Positions 23,513 to 63,774 of a stretch of 64,000 bases of DNA are shown here, piece after piece. Both the position numbers and the translations under genes were made by a program. Within the stretch, counting starts at the first letter, position 1, and every line of letters starts with the position of its first letter. The stretch is from the NCBI GenBank assembly GCA_041649715.1, contig JBAZMP010000001.1, positions 18,741 to 82,740 of the forward strand, written 5' to 3'. Source of the stretch: Patescibacteria group bacterium. GTDB lineage: Bacteria; Patescibacteriota; Patescibacteriia; JAXHNJ01. Below the pieces are notes generated by a model. The model made no database searches. It saw nothing but the letters and a program-made list of their open reading frames with translations, and was not told where the DNA came from.

Positions 23513-23825
23513 ATAATTTCCTTTCGTATTATTTTTTGATCTATTGTTAGATTAGCTTAGCGTAAAAAACGGAAAATGTCAAGAAGGAAACACGGTTATT
23601 CTAATTTTGTTATATTTTTCCTTCACGTCCCCTTATTTACTCCCTAATTCTTCCCAATCCGCGCATTCTTTGATTTTTATATGCTGTAACGGTAAGGGCG
23701 CAATTTAGGCGGGTAATATCCAGGGGCAGGAACTTTTTAGCTTGTAAATAATGGATATTTTACATAGTTGCTAAAATATGCTATATTTAAAAGGAATTTA
23801 ATTTATTAAAATAATAAAAAAGCCT

Positions 23826-24107
23826 ATGGCAAAAATTACAAAATCCCAGTTGCTCAATGTCTTGGCCGAAAAAACCACTTTGGCCAAAAAGCAAGTCGCC
23901 ATGTTTTTAGATGCTTTAGCGGAAGTAGCCTACAGCCAGGTAAAATCCAACGGAGAATTTACCATTCCGGGAATTGGCAAATTAGTCAAAAAGCATCGCG
24001 CGGCTCGGATGGGTCGTAACCCAGCGACCGGCGCCACGATCAAAATTGCGGCTAAGACAGTGGTAAAATTCCGCGTCGCCAAAGCGGCCAAAGACGCCAT
24101 TCTATAA
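23826..24107 (+). CDS. hup: DNA-binding protein HU
   Basis: 93 aa. GFGKFxxRxRxARMGRNPxTGAxIKIAAKxVVKF is an HU/IHF-family signature. Confidence 0.9.
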   Translation: MAKITKSQLLNVLAEKTTLAKKQVAMFLDALAEVAYSQVKSNGEFTIPGIGKLVKKHRAARMGRNPATGATIKIAAKTVVKFRVAKAAKDAIL

Positions 24108-24128
24108 ACAATAGTTGGTCTAATAATA

Positions 24129-24160
24129 AAAGGCCAGTCTCGTAGGAGCTGGCCTTTTTT
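24129..24160 (+). terminator. intrinsic terminator after hup
   Basis: aaaaggccagtctcgtaggagctggcctttttt. Confidence 0.6.
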
Positions 24161-24167
24161 GGTTTAT

Positions 24168-25205
24168 TCATTTTCTTGTTATTTGGACAATCCCGTTATT
24201 TCCGTCCACTTTAACTAGGTCGTTATCTGTTATGAATTTCGTCGCTATTTTAGTGCTAATGACACAGGGTGTCTTGAGCTCTCGGGAAACGATCGCGGCG
24301 TGACAGGTGATTCCTCCCTCATCAGTGACAATACCGGCCGCTCGTCTCAAAGCGACCATCATATCGGCGGTTGTCATGGGCGTGATCAGAATATCGCCTT
24401 TTTTTACCTTGTTTAAATCAGAGAGTTCAAAAACGACTCTTGCTTTTCCTTGCGCTTTGCCGCGGCAGGCGGATTGACCCTTGATTATATCGGCATCAAT
24501 CTTTTCCTTAGTGTTGTCTTTTAAAATAATATCATTATCCGTTAAGTATTTCTTGATATTTAAATATATTTTACCCCGATGAAATAAGTAGCCATGTGTT
24601 CTTCTGGCGAGTTCATTCTTCGAAGGAAAACTTTTAGTCTTTTCGCTGGGCAATAAATAAGGGAAATATTTTGGAGGAATACGATTTTTTTGTCCTAATT
24701 CGAGGTAAGTAATGTTTGACAGATAGGTCATAGCCGGATGAAGTATGCCTTCGCTTTCCACCCTGATGGTAAAGCATGTTTTTCTTAATTTTTGACTGAC
24801 TTTGAAAATTTTGGTACCGCCAAAAATATTAGAGAGGGCAATAATAGGCCAGATTTCCTGAATCAAAAAATACAACCTATTTGAATTTTTCAGCCTTTTA
24901 GTGATAATCGATTTTATTTCCCGGCGATAGATATCAAATTTCACCTTTCTTTTGATAAACAGTGAAATATTATTTTCTAAATAATTAAATATCGGTTCCA
25001 AGCCTTGTTTTGGGTCAGAAAAATTATAATAGATAGAAATTCCTTTCTGCGGGTGATATATAAATAGCGGATCAAAAAAAATAAGATTATCAAATTGTCG
25101 AGGTAGGGCTAATCTTTCGCCCCTATCCCAGCAATCACAGGCGATTAAATCCATTGGTCTGGCCATGATTTTTCGGAATTCTTGTTTTCGCAAGTGTTTT
25201 TTCAT
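24168..25205 (-). CDS. PEP-utilizing-enzyme swivel (phosphohistidine) domain protein, paralog 5
   Basis: 345 aa. C-terminal GKARVVFELSDLNKVKKGDILITPMTTADMMVALRRAAGIVTDEGGITCHAAIVSREL (PF00391-like). Variable N-terminal half. Confidence 0.7.
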   Translation of the reverse strand: MKKHLRKQEFRKIMARPMDLIACDCWDRGERLALPRQFDNLIFFDPLFIYHPQKGISIYYNFSDPKQGLEPIFNYLENNISLFIKRKVKFDIYRREIKSIITKRLKNSNRLYFLIQEIWPIIALSNIFGGTKIFKVSQKLRKTCFTIRVESEGILHPAMTYLSNITYLELGQKNRIPPKYFPYLLPSEKTKSFPSKNELARRTHGYLFHRGKIYLNIKKYLTDNDIILKDNTKEKIDADIIKGQSACRGKAQGKARVVFELSDLNKVKKGDILITPMTTADMMVALRRAAGIVTDEGGITCHAAIVSRELKTPCVISTKIATKFITDNDLVKVDGNNGIVQITRK

Positions 25206-25253
25206 TTTAAGATTCAGAGAGTAGTAATCGGTCTTGTTTGGATAATATATATT

Positions 25254-26453
25254 TTATTTCCTTCCCGATTTTTTGATAATTTGAGCCACTCCTTTATAGG
25301 CGTTTACTTGTACCAAATCGCCGTTTTTTAAAATTTGAGTCGCATTTTTTGTCCCCACGAGGCAGGGTTTTTTCAGTTCGCGTGAGATTATGGCCGCATG
25401 GCAAGTTATGCCGCCTTCGTCCGTAATAATCGCACCAGCATTCTTAAGAAAGGGAGTCATTTGCGGATTGGTCATGCTCGTGACTAAAATATTGCCCTTT
25501 TTCACCGCCGTGGTGCCGCTCCAGGATAAGTGAATTATTACCTTACCAGTGGCAAGACCGGGGTAGGCGATATCGCCCCTGATTTTGCGGTTATCAATTT
25601 TTCGAAGTTTATTTTGCCAATAAATGAATTTGTTACCGGTATATAAATTCCATGCCCCATCTTTTTTGATAAAAACGCAGCCCTTTAACCTTTTTCTTAA
25701 CTCCCCCGTAGATACTGTTATTTCATCAGTGATAGCCTTTTCTACTTCCTCCTTTCTCATGGCGCTAGCAAGATTAATCGATAGCTTGGTTTTTTTGGCA
25801 ATATATTTTGTGAAAGAGTCATCAGTGACGTATGTTTCCGAGTCTTTATGTAGCTGTAATTTGATCTCTCCCATTCGTCCTAGCCTTTTCACGTATTTTT
25901 TTACTTGACCATTAGTGATTTCGTTTATTTTATGCGTAGATAAAATTTTAACCAATGCGTTTCTTGATGTTAATTTAAGAAGCTTAGCTTCAACTGCCTG
26001 CGAGAATGGCGGTTCGTAAAATCGGTATAATTTGCAGAATTTATCGTTTAACCGCAGAGATTTTTTCCATTCGGCTAGAACGTTTTTTGAATTAAGCCGT
26101 GGTTTTTTGTAGTTTTTAAGCTGGACGCTTAAATTTTTGGATTTGGCAATTAAAGAAGCGGAGAATTTGTCATTTAATAATCGGGAGCCCAAATAACGGC
26201 ATTGTTTTATGCTTAAGGGTGACAAATAGGCCCTAGTGATGTTGTTTTCGCGCAAAACGATAAAATCAACCTCGCCGTAAGTTTCATTGTTGTTAAAAAT
26301 CATGTCCAGGGTAAGAATATTGAACCCGGAATTAGAAAAATGAAGACTATATCTTTTGGCGTCTTGATTATTTTTTTGAGAGCGCATTTTATAAAGTAGT
26401 AATCGGTCTCGATTGGACAATATACATTTTATTTTTTTCGTAGGCCCATTCAA
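25254..26453 (-). CDS. PEP-utilizing-enzyme swivel domain protein, paralog 4
   Basis: 399 aa. C-terminal ...ILVTSMTNPQMTPFLKNAGAIITDEGGITCHAAIISREL. Confidence 0.7.
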   Translation of the reverse strand: MNGPTKKIKCILSNRDRLLLYKMRSQKNNQDAKRYSLHFSNSGFNILTLDMIFNNNETYGEVDFIVLRENNITRAYLSPLSIKQCRYLGSRLLNDKFSASLIAKSKNLSVQLKNYKKPRLNSKNVLAEWKKSLRLNDKFCKLYRFYEPPFSQAVEAKLLKLTSRNALVKILSTHKINEITNGQVKKYVKRLGRMGEIKLQLHKDSETYVTDDSFTKYIAKKTKLSINLASAMRKEEVEKAITDEITVSTGELRKRLKGCVFIKKDGAWNLYTGNKFIYWQNKLRKIDNRKIRGDIAYPGLATGKVIIHLSWSGTTAVKKGNILVTSMTNPQMTPFLKNAGAIITDEGGITCHAAIISRELKKPCLVGTKNATQILKNGDLVQVNAYKGVAQIIKKSGRK

Positions 26454-27327
26454 TATCCTGCGGTATGCCGTAGTGTTTTTCGATTTTTTGGCAGAGTTTA
26501 GCCAGGGATATTATTTGTTTGTCGCCAAGCTTTTGTTTTTCTTGCTGGCTGGCCGGCACAGATTTGTTCATATTTCCAGAGGGACCTTTAACAATCATTT
26601 TTCCCTGCTGACTGATGCTTTTTTCCTTGAGGGCAAAATTCTTTTTATCGATAATATAGGTGTCGGGAGTAATAATACCCCCGACGATCGCTTCGCCCAG
26701 GCCGTAGCCGGCTTCAATCACGATTTGGCCCCGATCTTTAGTCACTGGGTGGGCGGTGAAACAAATACCCGAGATTTCTGAATTAATCATTTTTTGGACG
26801 ACCACGGCGACTGCCACTTTTGTTTTACGCAGTTTTTTCTCAAAGCGGTAGGAGATGGCGCGGGGCGTAAATAGCGACGCCCAGCATTTTTTGACGCTGG
26901 TCAGCAGGTTTTTATTATCCACGTTGAGATAACTTTCTAATTCGCCGGCCCAGGAAGCAACGGAGGAATCTTCGGCGGTAGCGGAACTGCGCACCGCTAC
27001 ATATTTAGCCTTAAGATTTAAGAATTCTTTTTGTATTTCGCCTTTCATCTCCGGCGGAAATTCAAGCTTTAAAATTAAACCCCTGATTTTATCCGACGCT
27101 TGATTAACTGAATTAATATTTTTTAGGTTGATCTTATTTAACAAAGCTTCAATTTTCGTCCCCAGTTGGTTTTTTTCCACGAACTGGTCAAAAGCCGAAG
27201 CCAAAACGACAAAACCGGGAGGGACGGGAATGCCAGCCTGCGTCATTTCGCCTAAAGAAGCGCCCTTGCCGCCGGCAATGGCGGCGTCATTTTTGCCTAA
27301 ATATTGAAAATTTTTAACAAAGGCCAT
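26389..27327 (-). CDS. pyruvate phosphate dikinase/PEP synthase N-terminal ATP-grasp (PPDK_N) domain protein, stand-alone
   Basis: 312 aa. GGKGASLGEMTQAGIPVPPGFVV, VAVRSSATAEDSSVASWAGELESYLNV, EWAYEKNKMYIVQSRPIT. Matches the nucleotide-binding domain of PpsA/PPDK/RPH and lacks a swivel domain. Confidence 0.75.
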   Translation of the reverse strand: MAFVKNFQYLGKNDAAIAGGKGASLGEMTQAGIPVPPGFVVLASAFDQFVEKNQLGTKIEALLNKINLKNINSVNQASDKIRGLILKLEFPPEMKGEIQKEFLNLKAKYVAVRSSATAEDSSVASWAGELESYLNVDNKNLLTSVKKCWASLFTPRAISYRFEKKLRKTKVAVAVVVQKMINSEISGICFTAHPVTKDRGQIVIEAGYGLGEAIVGGIITPDTYIIDKKNFALKEKSISQQGKMIVKGPSGNMNKSVPASQQEKQKLGDKQIISLAKLCQKIEKHYGIPQDIEWAYEKNKMYIVQSRPITTL

Positions 27328-27328
27328 A

Positions 27329-28801
27329 TTATTTTGCCTTTTTAATTATTTTTACCAATCCATGATTAGCGTTTACGTCAATTAAATCTCCATCTGCCAG
27401 AGATCTTGTGGCGATCTGAGTCCCGGTAATGCAGGGGATATTTAATTCTCTGGAGACAATGGCGGCGTGACAGGTAATTCCGCCTTCATCCGTGATGACC
27501 GCCGCCGCCTTTTTCATAATTGAGACATATTCGGGGCGGGTCATAGAGGCCACAATCACGTCGCCGTTGTCCATTTTAGAAAAATCCTTTTGGTTTAGAA
27601 TAATCTTCGCGATACCAATAACTTTTCCGGGCGAGACGGTTGTTCCCCTGATTTCTGAAGCGGCAATGGTTTTTTCCAGAATTTCAAAGTATTCCTCGGC
27701 GATTGAACCAGAAACGACTTCAAGTTTCGTGGTTTTTCCCGCAAAAACAATGAGACCAATGTTAGCTCTTTTTTTAAGCTCGGCAATCGTTTTTTTATCG
27801 CGTTTTATAATCAGGGGTATTTCATCGGGGACAGCATATTTTAGAAGGTCGATGCCAATCCCAATTTCTTTTGATATTTTTTCAATTATTTCAATAAATA
27901 CATAATTGGCTATCTGGTTGTATTTTTTGCGATCATCGCGATACGTAGTTACCCAATTAAAAAAGTTTAAGAATCGTAAAGTATTTCCGCTTATGGCGTA
28001 TTTATTAATCAAGGCGTTTTTGTTTTTCTTTACTTCTTCAAATTTTTCCAGCCCGTTTATTATACTCTTTACTTCCGCCTGATTTTTTACTAATTCTTTT
28101 AACTTTTTGGAAAAATATTTTTCATCGAGATACTCCGCCTTTTCATAATCATTCTTAAGCCAGTAATAATTGTCAGAATGTTTATTGATTAATTTTTTAA
28201 CTTCAGGCGAGTCAATGCCTTTTTCTTTGGCAATTTTATAAATACTTGAAAGGTCTTTTTGCTCTTTCTGCAAATTGGATAGTTCATCCGGGCTTAGCAG
28301 CGTATTTACATCATTCTTGTCTAGTTTTTCTTTGGTAGGGCCGAAAATAAAATCAATAATTTGGCTTTCGAAAGGATCCAGCAAGTCGATGTATAATGAA
28401 TTTTCCCAAAATTTCATATTCCATTCTAAAAATGACTCGTATTCTTTAATAAAAGATCGTGAAATGACTTTGTTTTTGAGGATAGCGAGCCCTGTTTTTT
28501 CTATTTCTTTGGCCGCGAGATAACAATCATTTTTCAGAGTTTTGAAGAAATCATTATTATTTTTGAGCCGGACAAATATCTTTTTTACCTGCTCGAGCGT
28601 TAAAAAATAATCGAAATAATGATAAAAGGTAAAACCGGTTTTTGTTTTGAGAAAAGTGCCTAAATCATTGGGGAAATAAAAACCCGATTTTTTAAACATC
28701 CTTTCGGAAAGGGCTAAAAAAGGCATCCCGCAACATAAAGGAATTCCTGCCCCGGATTGTCGGTACCACTTGATCGTTTTTACCTTTTTTTTCGTAAGCA
28801 T
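27329..28801 (-). CDS. PEP-utilizing-enzyme swivel domain protein, paralog 3
   Basis: 490 aa. C-terminal ...VIVASMTRPEYVSIMKKAAAVITDEGGITCHAAIVSRELNIPCI. N-terminal ~380 aa is paralog-specific. Confidence 0.7.
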   Translation of the reverse strand: MLTKKKVKTIKWYRQSGAGIPLCCGMPFLALSERMFKKSGFYFPNDLGTFLKTKTGFTFYHYFDYFLTLEQVKKIFVRLKNNNDFFKTLKNDCYLAAKEIEKTGLAILKNKVISRSFIKEYESFLEWNMKFWENSLYIDLLDPFESQIIDFIFGPTKEKLDKNDVNTLLSPDELSNLQKEQKDLSSIYKIAKEKGIDSPEVKKLINKHSDNYYWLKNDYEKAEYLDEKYFSKKLKELVKNQAEVKSIINGLEKFEEVKKNKNALINKYAISGNTLRFLNFFNWVTTYRDDRKKYNQIANYVFIEIIEKISKEIGIGIDLLKYAVPDEIPLIIKRDKKTIAELKKRANIGLIVFAGKTTKLEVVSGSIAEEYFEILEKTIAASEIRGTTVSPGKVIGIAKIILNQKDFSKMDNGDVIVASMTRPEYVSIMKKAAAVITDEGGITCHAAIVSRELNIPCITGTQIATRSLADGDLIDVNANHGLVKIIKKAK

Positions 28802-28817
28802 AAATTGGCTTGTTATA

Positions 28818-30320
28818 TTATTTTCTGATTATTTTAATAATTCTATCTTCCAGACCAAATTCGACCAGATCGCCGTCTTTTAAGACTTTAGTCGCAATTT
28901 TAGTGCCGATAATACAGGGAATGTGCAATTCGCGGCTGACAATCGCCGCGTGGCAGGTGATGCCGCCTTCGTCGGTAATGATCGCTTTGGCTTTTTTCAC
29001 GGCCGGCATCAATTCGGGCCGGGTCATGCTGCAGACGATTATCTCTCCCTTTGTTATTTTGCTTATTTCGCTTGAAGACTGGATTATTTTTACGATTCCC
29101 CGAGCATAACCCTTGGAAGCAATATTGCCCCTGATAACGTTTTGAGTCAAATCGGCTGGCTCAGTAATAATACTTTTAACTTCATAAAGCTTTTGGCGGG
29201 GGATCGTTTCTACACGCGTACGAGTGCCGATAAAGCCGAATTTTTGTTTTCTTTCGGGCAATGATTTTAGCGGTTTTGTATCTTCAAAAATACTTGTTAT
29301 TTCATGTGGGGTAAGAAATTCAAGGTCAGACAATTTTAATTTCAGCCGTTTGGCGATTTGACCGTTTAAGATATGTAGCCAGTAATTCGCTTTCATATTG
29401 GCCATTTTGCGCAGGTCTTGCCAGAGAGTCGTCATTTCTACCAGCTTTACCAGGGTTTTTATCTCTTTGCCAAGTTTATATTTGCCGATGATTTTATCCT
29501 TTATTTTTTTGTCTTTCGCATTTTTCTTCAGGGATGCATTTAGGGATATTTTATGCAATTCTTTTTTAAAATAAGCGAGATCCAGATTTCTATTTCTGGC
29601 GTAGCTGCTTTTTATCCAATAATAATTCTGGAAGTATTCATCATAAGCTTTTGCAAAATTTCGCTTCCGCGCGTGAAGCTTATGCTTTTTGGCTAAGAAT
29701 GCCAGAAATTCTTTTTCTTTTTCTAGAAAAGATTTTTCCGCGGGGTTAGTCAGTTCTGAGACAATTTGCGGGACGAGTTTATCGTTCTTTATTTTTTTCG
29801 AAATAATATCTGGAAAATATTCATCCATTAAAAAACCGAAACCGTCGGTAATCAAGGCGAGACTGTATTCTTTGACATAGGTCCGGTAAAATTCGGCATA
29901 AAGTCCGGTTAATTGATGATTTGTCAGTTTTGGTAACTTCGTATTTAATAAGCTGATGCAAAGTCGATTGAATGATGCAAAATAATTTTTCCAGGTATTA
30001 TGGATGATTAATGCCCGTCCCTTTTCGGCAGCCGATAAAAAATATCGGCCTACTTCCAGCGCCTGATTTTTTTCCATGGCATAGGTGGCATGACCGTGAA
30101 TAACCAGGCAGACTAGGGGAGTGTAATCGCGGAGGAAGTGCTTGGCTAATTCCAGAGTGGCGGATTCCACAACCGGATAAATCGTGGCCACTGTCGCTTC
30201 GCCTGACTGGACGATAAATTCATGACCTTTGAGTAGATTGACAATATTGTTCGTTTTTCGCGCCCCTTTTTTTCTAGCGGAAATTATTTTTCTACTCATT
30301 TCCTTAATATTATTTTTCAT
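28818..30320 (-). CDS. PEP-utilizing-enzyme swivel domain protein, paralog 2
   Basis: 500 aa. C-terminal ...IIVCSMTRPELMPAVKKAKAIITDEGGITCHAAIVSRELHIPCI. Shares the YYWIK/YYWLK central motif with paralog 3. Confidence 0.7.
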   Translation of the reverse strand: MKNNIKEMSRKIISARKKGARKTNNIVNLLKGHEFIVQSGEATVATIYPVVESATLELAKHFLRDYTPLVCLVIHGHATYAMEKNQALEVGRYFLSAAEKGRALIIHNTWKNYFASFNRLCISLLNTKLPKLTNHQLTGLYAEFYRTYVKEYSLALITDGFGFLMDEYFPDIISKKIKNDKLVPQIVSELTNPAEKSFLEKEKEFLAFLAKKHKLHARKRNFAKAYDEYFQNYYWIKSSYARNRNLDLAYFKKELHKISLNASLKKNAKDKKIKDKIIGKYKLGKEIKTLVKLVEMTTLWQDLRKMANMKANYWLHILNGQIAKRLKLKLSDLEFLTPHEITSIFEDTKPLKSLPERKQKFGFIGTRTRVETIPRQKLYEVKSIITEPADLTQNVIRGNIASKGYARGIVKIIQSSSEISKITKGEIIVCSMTRPELMPAVKKAKAIITDEGGITCHAAIVSRELHIPCIIGTKIATKVLKDGDLVEFGLEDRIIKIIRK

Positions 30321-31119
30321 AAGATTCGGCTAGTTCTTCAAGCTTGTCCATATCTACGCTATATTCTTGTCCGCGGAAATTAACGGATAATTTCTTTTCG
30401 CCCTTTTCGTCAATATTGAGGGAAAATTCCATGCCCTCGGCAAAATTAAGCGCGCCCCCGATTTCTTCCAGCTTTTCGAAACCGGTAATTTCCCTATCCT
30501 TATCTTTTCTGATCAAGATCTCTTTTAACAGCGCTTCGGGCAGGCCCTGGTGCGTCACATTAACTAGGTCGATATTTGAACCGGAATACAGTCTTTTCGC
30601 CATTCGTGAATATCGATTTAGAACATAGGCTAAAGACTCGGCCACTTCATGGGGCGATAAAGTATCTGGGTCGGGTCTTTCTTTGCCGAAGTTTAAATAC
30701 CAATCGGTGGCCGTGTCGGGATCATTTTTTGCCAACTCATTAAATTTTTTCATGAATTCCTCGGATAAAGGCGGCATGCCTATTTCGGCCCTAATTCGGG
30801 TATTTAACTTTTTATCGTGCGGTGCTCCTTCGATAACTTTTTCTACGGTTTCCAGCGCTCTTTTTACCGGACTGGAATAGCCCTTGATCGCGTCTCTTTT
30901 TTCCAGATCTTCTCCAAATTTAGTAGCTTGTTGTTTGCCTTCTTCTGTTAAAGTTCCGGTTAGATCTTTTGCTCCGTGCCGCATAAAAAATACATGCATT
31001 TCGACATTACTTCCAAATCGGTTTTCCGGTGTTTCTAGATGACTGATTCGTGGCTCATTTTCCATATTTTTATATTTACAATTGCTCAAATTTTTCAGCC
31101 GCCAGCTTTTTGAATTCAT
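30310..31119 (-). CDS. histidine phosphatase superfamily protein (phosphoglycerate-mutase-like)
   Basis: 269 aa. FFMRHGAKDLTGTLTEEGKQQA carries the RHG catalytic motif. Confidence 0.6.
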   Translation of the reverse strand: MNSKSWRLKNLSNCKYKNMENEPRISHLETPENRFGSNVEMHVFFMRHGAKDLTGTLTEEGKQQATKFGEDLEKRDAIKGYSSPVKRALETVEKVIEGAPHDKKLNTRIRAEIGMPPLSEEFMKKFNELAKNDPDTATDWYLNFGKERPDPDTLSPHEVAESLAYVLNRYSRMAKRLYSGSNIDLVNVTHQGLPEALLKEILIRKDKDREITGFEKLEEIGGALNFAEGMEFSLNIDEKGEKKLSVNFRGQEYSVDMDKLEELAESYEK

Positions 31120-31666
31120 TAAAAAAGAAAGAATCTAAAGATTTTTTCAGCAGTTTTAGAATTGCGGTCTTGTTTTTGAACCTCTTTTTTACTTTTTCGA
31201 TTCGCTCGGCGGAAAATCTGTCCAAATGATCAATGTCGTGGAACAATTTTTTGTTATGAGTATTATAAGCCTTGTTGAGGTTAATGCCGGTTAGCGTGTC
31301 GGCATCGTGCAGGCTGATGATGTCGACTATTTCTTTTATTTTTTCTTTTGGGTAATGGAGGGAAGTTAAAATGGTTTTAGCGATTTTCGCTCCGACGAGC
31401 ATATGCACTAATTTGCCGTTAGTTAGCACTTCCGAGCCGGCGACCCATTTAAAGTGTTCTTCCAGGAGGCCGGCATGGCCGATATCATGCATCATGGCGA
31501 CCGGTATTAAGATATCTTGGTCCATTTTCAATTTCCCGCGATAGTTAGTGATAATATTTACAGTTTCTTGGGCATGGCCCAAGTCATCCGGCCGCCCAGC
31601 CCTTAATAAGGGAAGACTTTTTTTCCATATTTTCCGGTATTTCGCCGGAGCGATGAACTTTTTCAT
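31076..31666 (-). CDS. HD-domain phosphohydrolase
   Basis: 196 aa. H...HD...H...D metal ligands (HAQETVNI, MMHDIGH, LHDAD). Confidence 0.7.
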   Translation of the reverse strand: MKKFIAPAKYRKIWKKSLPLLRAGRPDDLGHAQETVNIITNYRGKLKMDQDILIPVAMMHDIGHAGLLEEHFKWVAGSEVLTNGKLVHMLVGAKIAKTILTSLHYPKEKIKEIVDIISLHDADTLTGINLNKAYNTHNKKLFHDIDHLDRFSAERIEKVKKRFKNKTAILKLLKKSLDSFFFNEFKKLAAEKFEQL

Positions 31667-31670
31667 AAAA

Positions 31671-33098
31671 TTATAAGATAATTTTTATAATTCCATTGTT
31701 AGCGTCAATTTCCACTTGTTGGCCGTCTTTCAGAGCCTTGGTCGCCATTTTCGTCCCGATAATGCAGGGTATATTCAATTCCCGGCTGACGATAGCGGCG
31801 TGGCAGGTGATGCCGCCTTCATCCGTAATGATGCCGATCGCTTTTTTGAGCAGAGGGACGAATTCTGGTCGCGTCATGCTGGTTACCAGAATTTCTCCTT
31901 GTTTAAATTTAGAAAAATCTTTAGCGCTTAGAACGATTTTCACCGTACCTTTAACATGGCCTCGATTAGCGACATTGCCTTTTATTTCCGAGATTTTTCC
32001 GCTTAAATTAAATATTTCTTTATAGATATTATTCTTTGCTTTTTCAAAGTCAGCGTATTCGATTTCCGGGCCCTTTTTGCCAAAGAAGATGATAAAGCCC
32101 TTTTTCCTTCGTGTTAATTCCGCTTTGAATTTTTTTTGCTTGTAATGCTTCGTAACAAAATCTTTATACATGGTGTATATAATATTCTTTTCGGGTAAAT
32201 CTAGCCTTAAAAACATTTCCCGGATAGCATTGGAGAGCACGGCGTTTAGCTTATAAACGGATTCTTTACGCACATCTCTGATGTAGATGGCGATTTTTAT
32301 ATAATCAAATAAATCTCTCGTTTTTTTTGTTAAGGTTCGGCGATATTTTTCTACCAAAATTTTGTTTTGCCTAATCTGTTTTTGTAGCTTATTCTCTTCA
32401 TTTTTGATTCTTTGTAAGCCACCCAGTTCTTGAAGGTTTTGACGGGCTAATTTCAAGCAATCTTTTAGTTTTGGCGTATAAAGATAGTTGGCAAAAACCC
32501 ACTGGTTTTCTTTGTTTTTTGATTTATTAAAATCTATGAGCCCTGCCTGGCTTTTGTAAACAAAGGGAGTGAAATCGGTTAGCTGACTTAGATGCATAAA
32601 CTTCTGAAAATTTATCTTTGTTTTCATCCGGTCAAAATATTCTTTAACAATATGCTCATCCAGGGCCTCAGAAAACAAGGTGATAACCTGCCAATCCCTT
32701 AATTTTTCAAAAGTATTTATGATCAATTGTTCAAGCTCGCGAAGATTTAACATTTTTAACCTTGAAGGATAATATTGGCGGTAAATATGGTTAAAATCTT
32801 GGTCGATTTTTTTAAAATCAGCAAGCTCGGTAAATTTCTTTCTATTTTTCAGATATTTTTCCAAAGCTTGTTTGGTGGAAGCGGTATATTGGTTATTATT
32901 AAAAAATCCAATACCCCTTTTTCCGCCCAAAAGTAAGGCTAAAGAACCAAAATCACCCCTAAAATATTTTTTCTTAAGAGGCGAATATATAAGAAGACAA
33001 GAAGTTCCCCAAACCAAAGAGGAGAAATTTCCTTCGTGTTTGGTAATTTCCCGGTCCTTGTTGTCTTTAATGAATTTTTCTATTAATTTGTATTTCAT
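31671..33098 (-). CDS. PEP-utilizing-enzyme swivel domain protein, paralog 1
   Basis: 475 aa. C-terminal ...ILVTSMTRPEFVPLLKKAIGIITDEGGITCHAAIVSRELNIPCI. The annotated ATG abuts the tRNA-Ala 3' end, so the true start may be an internal Met. Confidence 0.65.
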   Translation of the reverse strand: MKYKLIEKFIKDNKDREITKHEGNFSSLVWGTSCLLIYSPLKKKYFRGDFGSLALLLGGKRGIGFFNNNQYTASTKQALEKYLKNRKKFTELADFKKIDQDFNHIYRQYYPSRLKMLNLRELEQLIINTFEKLRDWQVITLFSEALDEHIVKEYFDRMKTKINFQKFMHLSQLTDFTPFVYKSQAGLIDFNKSKNKENQWVFANYLYTPKLKDCLKLARQNLQELGGLQRIKNEENKLQKQIRQNKILVEKYRRTLTKKTRDLFDYIKIAIYIRDVRKESVYKLNAVLSNAIREMFLRLDLPEKNIIYTMYKDFVTKHYKQKKFKAELTRRKKGFIIFFGKKGPEIEYADFEKAKNNIYKEIFNLSGKISEIKGNVANRGHVKGTVKIVLSAKDFSKFKQGEILVTSMTRPEFVPLLKKAIGIITDEGGITCHAAIVSRELNIPCIIGTKMATKALKDGQQVEIDANNGIIKIIL

Positions 33099-33100
33099 TT

Positions 33101-33177
33101 TGGTGGACCCGAGCGGATTCGAACCGCTGATCTCCTCATTGCAAATGAGGTGTTCTAGCCAGCTGAACTACGGGCCC
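33101..33177 (-). tRNA. tRNA-Ala (anticodon TGC), CCA encoded
   Basis: Cloverleaf gggcccg/tagttcagctggctagaac/cctca-tttgcaa-tgagg/T-arm ggttcgaatcc. G3:U70 Ala identity pair. Confidence 0.85.
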
Positions 33178-33183
33178 AAAAGT

Positions 33184-33453
33184 TTATTCCGAAATAGTCG
33201 TCGTCTGGTCTAAAGAGGAAGAGGTAGACTTGAATATTTTACTGATACATCCGCCGAGGCAACCGGTTAGGGCCAAAAAAGTGCCGATAATAATGATCAG
33301 GCCGATAAGCTTGATAAATATCTTGGTCCCGCCCTCGCTGCCCAGGTGAGCTTCCGCCCAGTCGATCGGGCCGGTAAAATTATAAAACCACTCCGTTTTG
33401 ACAACGAGGAGAGAACCCACAATAATGGCGATGCCTCCAATAACGTAGTTCAT
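33184..33453 (-). CDS. small membrane protein (2 TM), hypothetical
   Basis: 89 aa. IGGIAIIVGSLLVV and LIGLIIIIGTFLALTG hydrophobic spans. Confidence 0.4.
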   Translation of the reverse strand: MNYVIGGIAIIVGSLLVVKTEWFYNFTGPIDWAEAHLGSEGGTKIFIKLIGLIIIIGTFLALTGCLGGCISKIFKSTSSSLDQTTTISE

Positions 33454-33469
33454 ATATTTGTTATGGTGG

Positions 33470-33590
33470 GCAACGAGGGTTTTAAAACCCTCGACCTTAC
33501 GGACCCGCCCGCCTTGACTGCCATCAAGGCAGTCAAGGCGGGTGTAAACCGTACGCTCTAACTCCCGAATGTTTTCGGGACGTCGGGACT
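33470..33590 (-). pseudogene. degenerate tRNA-Val(UAC)-like copy carrying a 39-nt perfect-hairpin insertion between anticodon-loop positions 37 and 38
   Basis: Minus strand reads gttagagcg-tacgg-tttaca[cccgcc...gggcggg]t-ccgta-aggtc-gaggg-ttttaaaa-ccctc. D-arm and anticodon arm are tRNA-like. The T-loop is degenerate and there is no acceptor stem. Insert spans 33504-33542. Confidence 0.4.
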
Positions 33591-33839
33591 AGTCGCCCAC
33601 TATTTTATTGATAATCTTTGCGCTTTTCTTACCTTTTTGGGATTTTTCTCTTTTATAAGCCAACCTTCTATCCAGATATTTTTCTAATCGGAGGAGAATA
33701 AACGGTCGTCGATGTTGAGTAGCTTTCGATAAGCCTCAATTATGTTCTCAAAAAACATTTCTTGAAGTTATTTGTTACGCCAATATAATATTAATTATCT
33801 TTTTGGCTTTTTATTATATAGACATGATACATATTACCG

Positions 33840-33913
<74 letters not shown>

Positions 33914-33923
33914 AGAATTATAA

Positions 33924-34006
33924 TGCGGACGGAGGGAGTTGAACCCTCATGCCAAAAATGGCCAGGAGCCTCAGTCCTGCGCGTATACCAATTCCGCCAC
34001 GTCCGC
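33924..34006 (-). tRNA. tRNA-Leu (anticodon GAG), long variable arm
   Basis: gcggacg/tggcggaattggtatacgcgc/cagga-ctgaggc-tcctg/long variable arm gccatttttggc/T-arm gagggttcaactccctc. Confidence 0.8.
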
Positions 34007-34048
34007 ATGAAAATAGATTTTTGTTAAAAAACTCAACACTGGATTTAG

Positions 34049-34130
34049 GGCGTATACCACCCCGAACCACTAAAGGGTTCGGGGTAGCCCTGAACTCTTC
34101 AGTAGTTCAGGGCAATTCCGCCACGTCCGC
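34049..34130 (-). pseudogene. 5' fragment of a tRNA-Leu-like gene with a 55-nt double-hairpin insertion in the D-loop, truncated after the D-arm
   Basis: Minus strand reads gcggacgtggcggaattg[ccctgaac..gttcaggg + ccccgaacc..ggttcgggg]gtatacgcc. The acceptor/D-arm is identical to the adjacent tRNA-Leu. No anticodon or T arm follows. Confidence 0.45.
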
Positions 34131-40051: not shown

Positions 40052-40127
40052 TGGTGCGCCTGGGGGGATTCGAACCACCGACCTTCCGCTTATAAGGCGG
40101 ATGCTCTAACCATTGAGCTACAGGCGC
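40052..40127 (-). tRNA. tRNA with anticodon TAT (tRNA-Ile(UAU)-like), CCA encoded
   Basis: gcgcctg/tagctcaatggttagagc/tccgc-cttataa-gcgga/T-arm ggtgg-ttcgaat-ccccc (one U:C mismatch)/caggcgc-a-cca. Confidence 0.7.
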
Positions 40128-54551: not shown

Positions 54552-54627
54552 GTGGGCGTAGCTCAACGGTTAGAGCGCCTGACTCTAAATCAGGATGTTG
54601 TTGGTTCAAATCCAATCACCCACTCCA
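54552..54627 (+). tRNA. tRNA with anticodon CTA (amber-reading), CCA encoded
   Basis: gtgggcg/ta/gctc-aacggtta-gagc/g/cctga-CTCTAAA-tcagg/atgtt/gttgg-ttcaaat-ccaat/cacccac-t-cca. One C6:A67 mismatch in the acceptor stem. Confidence 0.7.
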
Positions 54628-54649: not shown

Positions 54650-54724
54650 GTCCCAGTAGCTCAGCGGTAGAGCGCCTGACTCTAAATCAGGCAGTCGGAG
54701 GTTCAACTCCTCTCTGGGACTCCA
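54650..54724 (+). tRNA. tRNA with anticodon CTA (amber-reading), second copy, CCA encoded
   Basis: gtcccag/ta/gctc-agcggta-gagc/g/cctga-CTCTAAA-tcagg/cagtc/ggagg-ttcaact-cctct/ctgggac-t-cca. Perfect acceptor stem. D-arm and anticodon arm are identical to the first copy. Acceptor and T arms differ. Confidence 0.75.
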
Positions 54725-62072: not shown

Positions 62073-62287
62073 ACGAAATCAATTAAACATACTTTAGCAA
62101 GTGGTGGAGAAATGAAAGGAGGATGTTTGAGGACCAGCATGTTCTTTTTATAAAATAACAGCTGATGTATCCTATCTTCTCCTTTCATTCTTCCATCACT
62201 TGTGTAAAGTCAACAAAATTTTTCACTTTTTGAAAAGTTTACCGCGAGCTATTGAGTGGCTTGCGTTTAATCTTTTCAAATTTTACT

Positions 62288-63774
<1,487 letters not shown>

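What the first reader, a model, noticed from the sequence alone, without database searches (positions are those of the whole stretch)
24168..33098. Disassembled rifampin-phosphotransferase/PEP-synthase-like system: one ATP-grasp subunit plus five paralogous swivel-domain subunits, with His-phosphatase and HD hydrolase
Eight co-directional, tightly packed minus-strand genes form a low-GC block (~35% against ~45% in neighbors). The block is bounded by hup on one side and tRNA-Ala plus a pseudo-tRNA on the other.

Five proteins (475, 500, 490, 399 and 345 aa) each end in a near-identical phosphohistidine swivel domain (ITDEGGITCHAAI[VI]SREL). Their N-terminal 250-380 aa are diverged from one another, with only a weak shared YYW[IL]K motif.

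One separate 312-aa protein is a stand-alone PPDK_N ATP-grasp nucleotide-binding domain with no swivel.

In known PpsA, PPDK and RPH enzymes these modules are fused in one polypeptide. Here a single ATP-binding subunit appears positioned to charge five different substrate-specific phosphocarrier subunits.

Two embedded genes for a histidine phosphatase and an HD phosphohydrolase suggest a built-in dephosphorylation or reset arm.

Possibilities are xenobiotic or antibiotic inactivation by phosphorylation (as in RPH), or a diversifying defense or competition module. I am not aware of such a multi-paralog split arrangement having been described.
Basis: partly seen in the sequence, partly recalled or inferred. 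Interest (0 to 1): 0.8.

Follow-up and report, generated by a model that had tools for sequence, protein, structure and literature searches.

The report
One ATP subunit, five phosphocarrier kinases
This operon of an ultra-small Patescibacteria genome encodes one ATP-binding subunit and five different partner subunits of a rifampin-phosphotransferase-like kinase. The same one-to-many layout recurs in many tiny symbiotic bacteria and archaea, where such genes are commonly labelled 'PEP synthase'.

Summary
Eight co-directional genes (24168-33098, minus strand) encode one stand-alone PPDK_N ATP-grasp protein, five proteins ending in a PF00391 phosphohistidine swivel domain, a His_Phos_1 phosphatase and an HD hydrolase.

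The N-terminal parts of the swivel proteins are not orphan sequences. They have the fold of the substrate-binding domain of rifampin phosphotransferase (RPH). The three long paralogs carry a motif that aligns with RPH's catalytic Arg-Glu...Lys.

The split itself is not new: PpsAB, CreHI and HpeHI are characterised two-component dikinases. What I found no description of is the one-to-many layout.

In 78 related loci from Patescibacteria and DPANN archaea:
- there are 2 to 12 paralogous modules per locus;
- no locus has more than one ATP-grasp gene;
- some archaea fuse the whole set into one protein, the largest being 4768 aa with 1 ATP-grasp and 10 swivel modules.

These fusions support a shared ATP-charging subunit.

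Paralog subfamilies are conserved across both domains, which argues against a fast-diversifying defence module. No PEP/pyruvate-binding domain is present, so this is not PEP synthase.

The substrates are unknown. I rate it a new variant of a known kind, interest 0.7.

The parts
31671..33098 (-). S475: long carrier-kinase subunit, made of an RPH-like helical substrate-binding domain plus a C-terminal phosphohistidine swivel domain. Catalytic His433; R274-D275-x-x-K278 aligns with RPH R666-E667-x-x-K670.
31076..31666 (-). HD196: small HD-domain phosphohydrolase-like protein.
   Evidence: Pfam HD 22.4 bits against cut-off 22. Homologs lie in 10 related loci, usually directly next to swivel genes of subfamilies 3 and 1. 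No solved relative by sequence.
30310..31065 (-). HP251: histidine-phosphatase-superfamily (branch 1) protein with an RHG motif. The ORF extends to 31119, but the ATG at 31065 avoids overlap with the HD gene.
   Evidence: PF00300 E 1.3e-13. The gene call on the source contig is 251 aa. Profile homologs lie in 26 of 78 related loci, many adjacent and co-directional.
28818..30320 (-). S500: long carrier-kinase subunit. Catalytic His457; motif Q301-D302-x-R304-K305, with Gln at the position of RPH Arg666.
   Evidence: PF00391 E 3e-22. N-domain profile E 1e-63 to 1e-79 against S475 and S490 profiles. Motif.
27329..28801 (-). S490: long carrier-kinase subunit. Catalytic His445; R288-D289-x-R291-K292.
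   Evidence: PF00391 E 4.9e-23. The N-domain alone finds 710 cluster representatives, nearly all 470-520 aa. Motif.
26389..27327 (-). G312: stand-alone ATP-grasp (PPDK_N) nucleotide-binding subunit, the only one in the window.
   Evidence: PF01326 E 2.6e-101. Closest solved relatives are PEP synthase 8a8e (2e-81) and RPH (2e-64). K21, R113, S132 and E293 align with RPH K22, R117, T136 and E297. No second copy in the window.
25254..26387 (-). S399 (377 aa from the ATG at 26387): short subunit with a truncated N-domain plus swivel (His352 in 399-aa numbering). It lacks the RDxRK segment.
24168..25166 (-). S345 (332 aa from the ATG at 25166; the ORF extends to 25205): short subunit with an almost orphan N-domain plus swivel (His302 in 345-aa numbering).
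   Evidence: PF00391 E 9.6e-24. Its N-domain has only one other homolog cluster among 5.8 billion proteins. hhalign shows that only the last ~100 residues of the N-domain plus the swivel are shared with S475.
33101..33177 (-). tRNA-Ala(UGC). This is a boundary feature and not part of the enzyme system. Its 3' end lies 2 nt from the S475 start codon.
   Evidence: ARAGORN. Rfam tRNA 70.2 bits.

Best explanation
The block is one operon for a multi-component, RPH-type ATP-dependent dikinase with a hub-and-spoke layout.

Proposed mechanism:
1. The single ATP-grasp subunit G312 binds ATP.
2. By analogy with RPH, PEP synthase and PpsAB/HpeHI, G312 transfers the beta-phosphate to the conserved histidine of a swivel domain and releases AMP and Pi.
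3. Each of the five partner proteins carries its own swivel domain. That domain swings back onto the protein's own N-terminal helical domain, where the phosphate is passed to an acceptor bound there.

The three long partners (S475, S490, S500) have the RPH substrate-binding fold and the [R/Q]-D-x-R-K motif that aligns with RPH's catalytic R666-E667-x-x-K670. They are most likely three kinases with different, unknown, probably small-molecule acceptors.

The two short partners (S399, S345) keep the swivel and the ~100 residues before it but lack the motif segment. They may use other residues, or act as carriers or regulators.

The His_Phos_1 and HD proteins are phosphohydrolases. They probably act on the phosphorylated products or on phospho-His.

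What is shown: domain content, fold, conserved catalytic residues, conserved gene neighbourhood, and natural fusions of one ATP-grasp with many modules.

What is inferred: the phosphotransfer itself, the sharing of G312 by all five partners, the nature of the acceptors, and the role of the phosphatases.
For: - Domain content: Pfam and NCBIfam assignments.
- ATP-grasp: G312 keeps the ATP-phosphate ligands that were mutated in RPH (residues listed in PMC4844700).
- Catalytic motif: a 69-sequence family profile aligns RPH residues 638-866 and places the family's R-D-x-R-K on RPH R666-E667-x-x-K670. In that alignment R291 and K292 are invariant, and R288 and D289 nearly so.
- Paralog homology: the S475, S490 and S500 N-domains are homologous at profile E 1e-50 to 1e-70.
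- Natural fusions:
  - ~800-aa ATP-grasp + N-domain + swivel proteins, whose module is the S475 type.
  - ~680-aa ATP-grasp + S399-type proteins.
  - Giant ORFs with 1 PPDK_N plus 10 PEP-utilizers domains (4768 aa) and 1 plus 8 (3761 aa), confirmed by Pfam. All ten His motifs in the 4768-aa ORF are intact.
- Census of 78 related loci:
  - 384 swivel modules against 32 ATP-grasp domains.
  - 26 loci have exactly one ATP-grasp gene and none has two.
  - All core genes are co-directional.
- Precedent: two-component relatives PpsAB, CreHI and HpeHI work this way biochemically (PMC12167813).
Against: - No biochemical data exist for any member of this clade.
- 38 of the 65 multi-module loci show no ATP-grasp within the ±10 kb fetched. 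Many of these arrays run to the locus end, so the one-per-array rule is not proven genome-wide.
- HpeH and HpeI did not form a stable complex in solution (PMC12167813), so shared use cannot be read from the sequence.
- S500 has Gln at the position of the essential RPH Arg666, and S399 and S345 lack the segment. Only about half of the long modules in the family match a strict [RKQ]DxRK pattern.
- The swivel and ATP-grasp domains are closer in sequence to true PEP synthase than to RPH. The swivel has the PEP-synthase-type Thr at His-2, not the Met of RPH and HpeH (PMC12167813). The family is therefore a mosaic.
- How one ATP-grasp domain could serve ten swivel domains in cis is unexplained.
Confidence: 0.7

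Rival explanations
1. Xenobiotic or antibiotic inactivation battery. Each paralog would phosphorylate and inactivate a different toxic compound made by hosts or competitors, as RPH does with rifamycins.
For: The fold and catalytic motif are RPH-like. Stogios et al. describe the wider RPH family as small-molecule dikinases, some of which act on antibiotics (PMC4844700). rph-like hits have been reported in CPR resistome surveys (PMC8651080).
Against: RPH equivalog models score at most 73 bits (swivel proteins) and 289 bits (ATP-grasp) against a cut-off of 999. Identity to RPH is only 17%. The paralog subfamilies are conserved across Patescibacteria and DPANN archaea and are mostly single-copy per locus. 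That looks like housekeeping orthogroups rather than an accessory resistome. Co-encoded phosphatases would undo an inactivating phosphorylation.
Confidence: 0.1
2. Split or degenerate PEP synthase (PpsA) or PPDK that interconverts pyruvate and PEP, as automatic annotation suggests.
For: The best NCBIfam and PDB sequence matches of both the ATP-grasp and the swivel domains are to PEP synthase. Sources name relatives 'phosphoenolpyruvate synthase/pyruvate phosphate dikinase' or 'PEP-utilizing enzyme'. The swivel has the PEP-synthase-type GGxTCH motif.
Against: None of the eight proteins has the PEP/pyruvate-binding TIM-barrel domain PF02896. All scores lie far below the PpsA equivalog cut-offs (351 and at most 131 bits against 598). 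The swivel is C-terminal behind an RPH-like helical domain, not central. True PpsA-like proteins with a central swivel occur as separate genes beside two arrays, in L005 and L076.
Confidence: 0.04
3. ATP-dependent activating or condensing enzymes in the manner of PigC, RedH and HapC, or kinases acting on a polymer or a protein (as glucan water dikinase or PTS enzyme I do), rather than kinases of free small molecules.
For: PigC and RedH models match both G312 and the swivel parts. The same domain set is used for condensation (PMC13534948, listed) and for glucan phosphorylation (PMC13553574, listed). Hexapeptide-repeat transferases recur next to arrays in 7 loci.
Against: The PigC and RedH matches cover only the ATP-grasp and swivel regions and lie far below cut-off. 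No carbohydrate-binding or HPr-like partner is seen in the operon. Nothing in the data separates these acceptor classes.
Confidence: 0.12
4. Anti-phage defence or inter-microbial competition module that diversifies quickly, carried on a low-GC island next to tRNA genes.
For: The paralogs are tandem with very divergent N-domains. The block has slightly lower GC and a tRNA at one end. S345 is almost an orphan.
Against: No PADLOC hit. No match in phage or plasmid collections. No integrase or other island hallmark was seen in the block or among the called neighbouring genes, and the adjacent genes have similar GC. The subfamilies are old and shared between domains.
Confidence: 0.04

Closest known systems
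Rifampin phosphotransferase RPH (Listeria monocytogenes; PDB 5FBS/5HV1)
   Different: RPH is one polypeptide, whereas here the ATP-grasp is a separate gene serving five partner genes. Identity is 17%. The RPH equivalog cut-offs are not met. The His-2 residue is Thr here and Met in RPH. RIF-binding residues were not examined.
Two-component phenolic dikinases: PpsAB (phenylphosphate synthase), CreHI and HpeHI (PMC12167813)
   Same: An ATP-grasp subunit plus a separate substrate-binding-and-swivel subunit. The mechanism, via a conserved His, has been shown biochemically. In the Hpe pathway a later step dephosphorylates the product.
   Different: Those are 1:1 gene pairs in aromatic-catabolism clusters of Proteobacteria and Actinobacteria, with Met at His-2. 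Here the ratio is 1:5 (up to about 1:10 elsewhere), the His-2 residue is Thr, there are no carboxylase or aromatic-catabolism neighbours, and the hosts are Patescibacteria and DPANN.
PEP synthase (PpsA) and PPDK
   Same: These give the highest sequence similarity for both the ATP-grasp domain (8a8e, E 2e-81) and the swivel domain (E 1e-26), including the GGxTCH motif.
   Different: The window proteins have no PEP/pyruvate TIM-barrel domain. The swivel is C-terminal, not central. An RPH-like helical domain takes the place of the TIM barrel.
PigC, RedH and HapC prodiginine condensing enzymes
   Same: RPH-like ATP-grasp and swivel architecture. The NCBIfam models match both parts.
   Different: They are single ~880-aa polypeptides in pigment gene clusters. 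The matches lie far below cut-off and are restricted to the ATP-grasp and swivel regions.
PTS enzyme I
   Different: Enzyme I takes phosphate from PEP through a TIM-barrel domain and passes it to HPr. Neither partner is present here.

Membership tests
RPH-type small-molecule dikinase superfamily | ATP-grasp (PPDK_N) nucleotide-binding domain with Lys22, Arg117 and Thr136-type phosphate ligands | tested here: met
   G312 matches PF01326 at E 2.6e-101. K21, R113, S132 (Ser in place of Thr) and E293 align with RPH K22, R117, T136 and E297.
RPH-type small-molecule dikinase superfamily | C-terminal phosphohistidine swivel domain with the catalytic His | tested here: met
   All five proteins match PF00391 at E 3e-22 to 3e-26. 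The catalytic His aligns in all five: H433, H457, H445, H352 and H302.
RPH-type small-molecule dikinase superfamily | Helical substrate-binding domain of the RPH fold preceding the swivel | tested here: met
RPH-type small-molecule dikinase superfamily | Catalytic Arg-Glu...Lys ('block 9', RPH R666/E667/K670) | tested here: inconclusive
   Present in S475 (R274/D275/K278) and S490 (R288/D289/K292). S500 has Q301/D302/K305. The segment is absent from S399 and S345.
RPH-type small-molecule dikinase superfamily | ATP-dependent phosphotransfer through phospho-His to an acceptor, releasing AMP and Pi | not testable with these tools
   This needs a biochemical assay.
Rifampin phosphotransferase proper (NCBIfam NF041857 / NF000283) | Full-length equivalog score above the curated cut-off | tested here: not met
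   Best scores are 289 bits (G312) and at most 73 bits (swivel proteins) against a cut-off of 999, and at most 195 bits against 1700.
Rifampin phosphotransferase proper (NCBIfam NF041857 / NF000283) | Conserved rifampin-contacting residues in the binding cleft | not tested
   No residue-level structural superposition was available. Overall identity to RPH is 17%.
Two-component phenolic dikinases (PpsAB / CreHI / HpeHI) | Separate ATP-grasp subunit and substrate-binding-plus-swivel subunit | tested here: met
   G312 is a stand-alone protein and the five partners lack PPDK_N.
Two-component phenolic dikinases (PpsAB / CreHI / HpeHI) | One-to-one gene pair within an aromatic-catabolism cluster, with a carboxylase and related genes | tested here: not met
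   There is one ATP-grasp to five partners. The neighbours are hup, tRNAs, ribosomal protein L19, a pseudouridine synthase, an S66 peptidase and similar genes.
Two-component phenolic dikinases (PpsAB / CreHI / HpeHI) | Met at the His-2 position, versus the regulatory Thr of PEP synthase (PMC12167813) | tested here: not met
   All five have GGITCH, that is Thr at His-2. Across the family Thr occupies this position in 253 of 323 motifs.
PEP synthase (TIGR01418 / NF005057) | C-terminal PEP/pyruvate-binding TIM-barrel domain (PF02896) and an equivalog score above cut-off | tested here: not met
   No PF02896 hit in any of the eight proteins. Scores are 351 bits and at most 131 bits against cut-offs of 598 and 739.75.
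Known anti-phage defence systems (PADLOC-DB 2.0) | Match of any component to a defence-system model | tested here: not met
   Zero families for all eight proteins at E up to 0.01.

The most novel reading that the evidence does not exclude
Patescibacteria and DPANN archaea share an undescribed, conserved 'dikinase battery'. In it, one ATP-grasp engine charges up to about ten different RPH-like carrier-kinase modules. The modules may be encoded as tandem genes or as a single megaprotein of up to 4768 aa. Each subfamily would have its own conserved acceptor. The battery would be a core metabolic device of these ultra-small symbionts, for example irreversible ATP-to-AMP-driven trapping or activation of scavenged metabolites in place of missing conventional kinases, with dedicated phosphatases. 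It would then be the true identity of much of what is annotated as 'PEP synthase' in their metabolic reconstructions.
Probability: 0.3. Interest if true: 0.85.

Novelty: new variant of a known kind. Interest (0 to 1): 0.7.

Why it matters
Patescibacteria and DPANN archaea make up a large share of microbial diversity, and their genomes encode very little recognisable metabolism.

Genes of this family are named 'PEP-utilizing enzyme' or 'phosphoenolpyruvate synthase/pyruvate phosphate dikinase' by public sources. One recent preprint lists 'PEP synthase' among the very few metabolic functions kept by Pacearchaeales, and notes that the canonical pathway supplying its substrate is missing (10.64898/2026.05.13.725050). 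I could not check whether that annotation refers to these proteins.

If many such genes are instead modules of a multi-substrate, ATP-to-AMP dikinase system, reconstructions of energy and carbon flow in these organisms need revision.

It would also define a conserved, multi-gene (in some archaea multi-module) system for which I found no experimental study. Its substrates could reveal what these symbionts take from their hosts.

Mechanistically, one ATP-grasp domain serving up to ten swivel domains, in trans or within one 4768-aa chain, goes beyond anything shown so far for swivel-domain enzymes.

Tried and rejected
- **Defence system:** PADLOC scan of all eight proteins gave no hits. tblastn of the S490 N-domain against phage and plasmid collections gave no match. 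I rejected a defence or mobile-element reading.
- **Operon signals:** the promoter and terminator consensus scan of 23700-34100 found no more terminator-like sites than shuffles (15 against 12.9 ± 3.8); promoter-like sites exceeded shuffles (39 against 26.1 ± 5.1) but none lay upstream of the operon on its strand.
- **Pseudo-tRNA:** neither ARAGORN nor Rfam found one next to tRNA-Ala.
- **HP and HD proteins:** a sequence search against PDB chains found no usable relatives.
- **Short subunit next to the ATP-grasp:** I tested whether the short class is the preferred gene immediately downstream of the ATP-grasp gene. The result was 6 of 15 against a background of 53 of 301, Fisher p = 0.03, which is too weak to build on.
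- **First profile-iteration script:** it timed out and was redone with HMMER alignments.
- **AlphaFold-database fold search:** the afdb50 library was unavailable.
- **Literature:** searches for any description of the arrays found nothing relevant. Terms used were PF00391 with CPR; 'phosphohistidine swiveling domain'; dikinase, Patescibacteria, DPANN and Saccharibacteria; and PEP synthase, CPR, DPANN and copies. The supplements of the Saccharibacteria Tn-seq paper held none of the search terms.
- **MarK:** this kinase (PMC12624787) belongs to an unrelated family, UPF0261.
- **Reverse reaction:** I considered and set aside ATP synthesis from phosphorylated donors plus AMP and Pi. From textbook free energies (my own knowledge), only PEP-class donors could drive it, and no PEP-binding domain is present.

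Full report
**1. The observation**

The region 24168-33098 holds eight minus-strand ORFs.

- Pfam assigns a C-terminal PEP-utilizers mobile (swivel) domain, PF00391, to five of them (E 3e-22 to 3e-26).
- The 312-aa protein is PPDK_N (PF01326, E 2.6e-101) and nothing else.
- The 269-aa ORF is His_Phos_1 (E 1.3e-13).
- The 196-aa ORF has a marginal HD match (22.4 bits against a cut-off of 22).
- No protein has the PEP/pyruvate-binding domain PF02896.

Refined starts come from in-frame ATGs that remove overlaps, and they match the independent gene calls on the source contig. They give proteins of 475, 196, 251, 493-500, 490, 312, 377 and 332 aa. The gaps between genes are -11 to 16 nt, plus one of 87 nt, which fits a single operon.

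The 18-residue core TDEGGITCHAAI[VI]SREL is identical in all five swivel proteins. The swivel domains as a whole are 42-65% identical. The N-terminal parts are barely alignable by BLASTP.

The window contains no further swivel or ATP-grasp ORF.

- Block GC is 38.6% against 45.1% for the window.
- The flanking 19-24 kb has similar GC, so the block is not a sharp island.
- No pseudo-tRNA is detectable beside tRNA-Ala.

The source is a 221-kb metagenome contig. NCBI names the organism 'Patescibacteria group bacterium'.

**2. What the parts are**

*The ATP-grasp subunit.* G312 is a complete ATP-grasp domain. Its closest solved relatives are archaeal-type PEP synthase (8a8e, E 2e-81) and RPH (E 2e-64). 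Mutagenesis of RPH showed that certain residues are needed to position the ATP phosphates (PMC4844700). Their equivalents are conserved in G312:

| RPH residue | G312 residue |
|---|---|
| Lys22 | K21 |
| Arg117 | R113 |
| Thr136 | S132 |
| Glu297 | E293 |

A profile of 69 diverse family members aligns RPH residues 638-866. It places the family's nearly invariant R-D-x-R-K on RPH R666-E667-x-x-K670. Stogios et al. identified that triad as critical for the second phosphotransfer and found it conserved even in distant clades.

In the window the motif status is:

| Protein | Residues at the RPH R666 / E667 / K670 positions |
|---|---|
| S475 | R274 / D275 / K278 |
| S490 | R288 / D289 / K292 |
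| S500 | Q301 / D302 / K305 |
| S399 | segment absent |
| S345 | segment absent |

Iterated profiles show that the S475, S490 and S500 N-domains are homologous (E 1e-50 to 1e-70). S399 joins more weakly (1e-10 to 1e-29).

*The short partners.*
- S345 shares only the ~100 residues before the swivel with S475 (hhalign).
- Its N-terminal ~130 residues are nearly orphan, with one other cluster among 5.8 billion proteins.

**3. Relatives elsewhere**

S475 orthologs are rare: 18 clusters, all about 475 aa with PF00391. A scan of one genome per GTDB species found at least 598 matching stretches. The 77 best loci carry these source labels:

| Label | Loci |
|---|---|
| Patescibacteria lineages | 37 |
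| DPANN lineages (Woese-, Pace-, Nano-, Micrarchaeota) | 21 |
| 'archaeon' | 5 |
| 'uncultured bacterium' | 4 |
| Other labels, possibly mis-binned | 10 |

I called ORFs in these loci and searched them with the window's domains.

- 384 swivel modules were found against 32 ATP-grasp domains.
- 65 loci have at least 2 modules, 40 have at least 5 and 20 have at least 8.
- All core genes are co-directional.
- 26 loci have exactly one ATP-grasp gene. None has two.
- 38 loci show none within the ±10 kb fetched.
- Complete swivel-only ORFs have a median length of 482 aa, with a second class at about 330-400 aa.
- The swivel is always at the C-terminus.

The N-domain modules cluster into about 41 subfamilies. 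Most occur once per locus. Every large subfamily contains both Patescibacteria and DPANN members. The arrays are therefore sets of distinct, old orthogroups and not recent local amplifications.

The S490 N-domain alone finds 710 representatives (E up to 1e-3) among 1.84 billion 50%-identity cluster representatives. Nearly all are 470-520 aa.

**4. Fusions that link the parts**

In other genomes the ATP-grasp domain is fused to different module types and numbers:
- to an S475-type module, giving ~800 aa with the swivel at the C-terminus, in L005, L007, L017, L023, L024 and L037;
- to an S399-type short module, giving ~680 aa, in L065 and in the truncated P0172, P0192, P0193, P0225 and P0289;
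- to 2 or 3 modules, giving 1100-1700 aa;
- in DPANN archaea, to 6, 8 or 10 modules in single ORFs of 2967, 3761 and 4768 aa.

Pfam confirms 1 PPDK_N plus 10 PEP-utilizers domains for the 4768-aa ORF and 1 plus 8 for the 3761-aa ORF. All ten His motifs in the largest ORF are intact.

In the window, G312 sits 1 nt from S490 on one side and 1 nt from S399 on the other.

These fusions are the strongest available evidence that one ATP-grasp unit works with many carrier modules.

**5. Accessory genes**

- His_Phos_1-like proteins occur in 26 of 78 loci.
- HD196-like proteins occur in 10 loci. They usually sit directly after a subfamily-3 module and/or before an S475-type module.
- Also recurrent are hexapeptide-repeat proteins (7 loci), LMW phosphotyrosine-phosphatase-like proteins (5), phosphate acetyl/butyryl transferases (5) and isochorismatase-family proteins (4).

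Phosphatases of several unrelated folds therefore accompany the kinases. Whether they act on products or on phospho-His cannot be told from sequence.

**6. Mechanism proposed**

G312 binds ATP and phosphorylates the swivel His of a partner with the beta-phosphate, releasing AMP and Pi. This step is by analogy with RPH, PEP synthase, PpsAB and HpeHI. The swivel then returns to its own helical domain, where the R/D/K site transfers the phosphate to a bound acceptor.

Three window paralogs have the full apparatus for this. Two have not, and their role is open.

The acceptors are unknown. The conservation of subfamilies across two domains of ultra-small symbionts points to conserved cellular metabolites rather than variable toxins, but that is inference.

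**7. Comparison with what is known**

The system works like RPH and like the two-component dikinases PpsAB, CreHI and HpeHI. It is not an ortholog of RPH, because the equivalog cut-offs are missed by a wide margin.

It is not a member of the phenolic-kinase subgroup, for three reasons:
- it has Thr instead of Met at His-2;
- the gene ratio is 1:5 instead of 1:1;
- there is no aromatic-catabolism gene context.

It is not PEP synthase, because it has no PF02896 domain and the domain order is wrong.

By sequence the ATP-grasp and swivel parts are closest to PEP synthase, while the middle domain is RPH-like.

**8. Novelty**

I found no paper describing tandem arrays of swivel-domain paralogs with a single ATP-grasp, or the multi-module giant proteins. 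The library searched is incomplete, so this is absence of evidence only.

The split architecture alone is known (PMC12167813). I therefore class the finding as a new variant of a known kind.

**9. Verdict**

It is not unique to this genome. It is a member of a widespread and apparently undescribed system of Patescibacteria and DPANN archaea.

- Interest: 0.7.
- Confidence in the shared-ATP-grasp dikinase mechanism: 0.7.
- Confidence in any particular substrate class: low.

Noticed in passing
window 54552-54627 and 54650-54724 (+): Two tandem tRNAs with anticodon CUA, which would read the amber stop codon UAG. ARAGORN labels them tRNA-Pyl, and Rfam scores them as tRNAs at 68.8 and 70.3 bits. 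TAG is the rarest stop among long ORFs in the window (4 of 44). This may indicate amber suppression or recoding.
   Followed up: partly
window 33098-33177 (-): The 3' end of tRNA-Ala(UGC) lies 2 nt from the ATG of S475. There is no room for a separate ribosome-binding site, so the operon may be co-transcribed with the tRNA.
   Followed up: no
L060:1523-15829 (+), L018:4349-15634 (+), L006:8273-17176 (+): Giant DPANN ORFs of 4768, 3761 and 2967 aa, made of one ATP-grasp domain followed by 10, 8 and 6 N-domain-plus-swivel modules. Pfam confirmed the two largest.
   Followed up: yes
L005:5807-8209 (-) and L076:7826-10321 (-): Proteins of 800 and 831 aa with the swivel in the middle (the PpsA-like domain order) lie on the opposite strand right next to two arrays. 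They appear to be true PEP-synthase-type genes, but their C-terminal domains were not scanned against Pfam.
   Followed up: partly
window 62283-63772 (+): An apparently full-length bacterial 16S rRNA gene (Rfam 1410.6 bits, covering model positions 1-1533), usable for placing the organism.
   Followed up: no
window 40052-40127 (-): ARAGORN reports a tRNA-Ile with anticodon UAU. It may instead be a CAU tRNA whose anticodon is modified, so this call needs checking.
   Followed up: no
L019:5700-8100: The closest relative's copy of the S475-HD region (Falkowbacteria MAG) is broken into ORFs of about 90 aa. This could be frameshift errors from long-read assembly or real pseudogenes.
   Followed up: no
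L043:4898-6160 and three other loci: ORFs of about 410 aa that resemble the long N-domain, with YFWIK and QDDRK motifs, but have no swivel domain. They may be modules that lack their own phosphocarrier.
   Followed up: no
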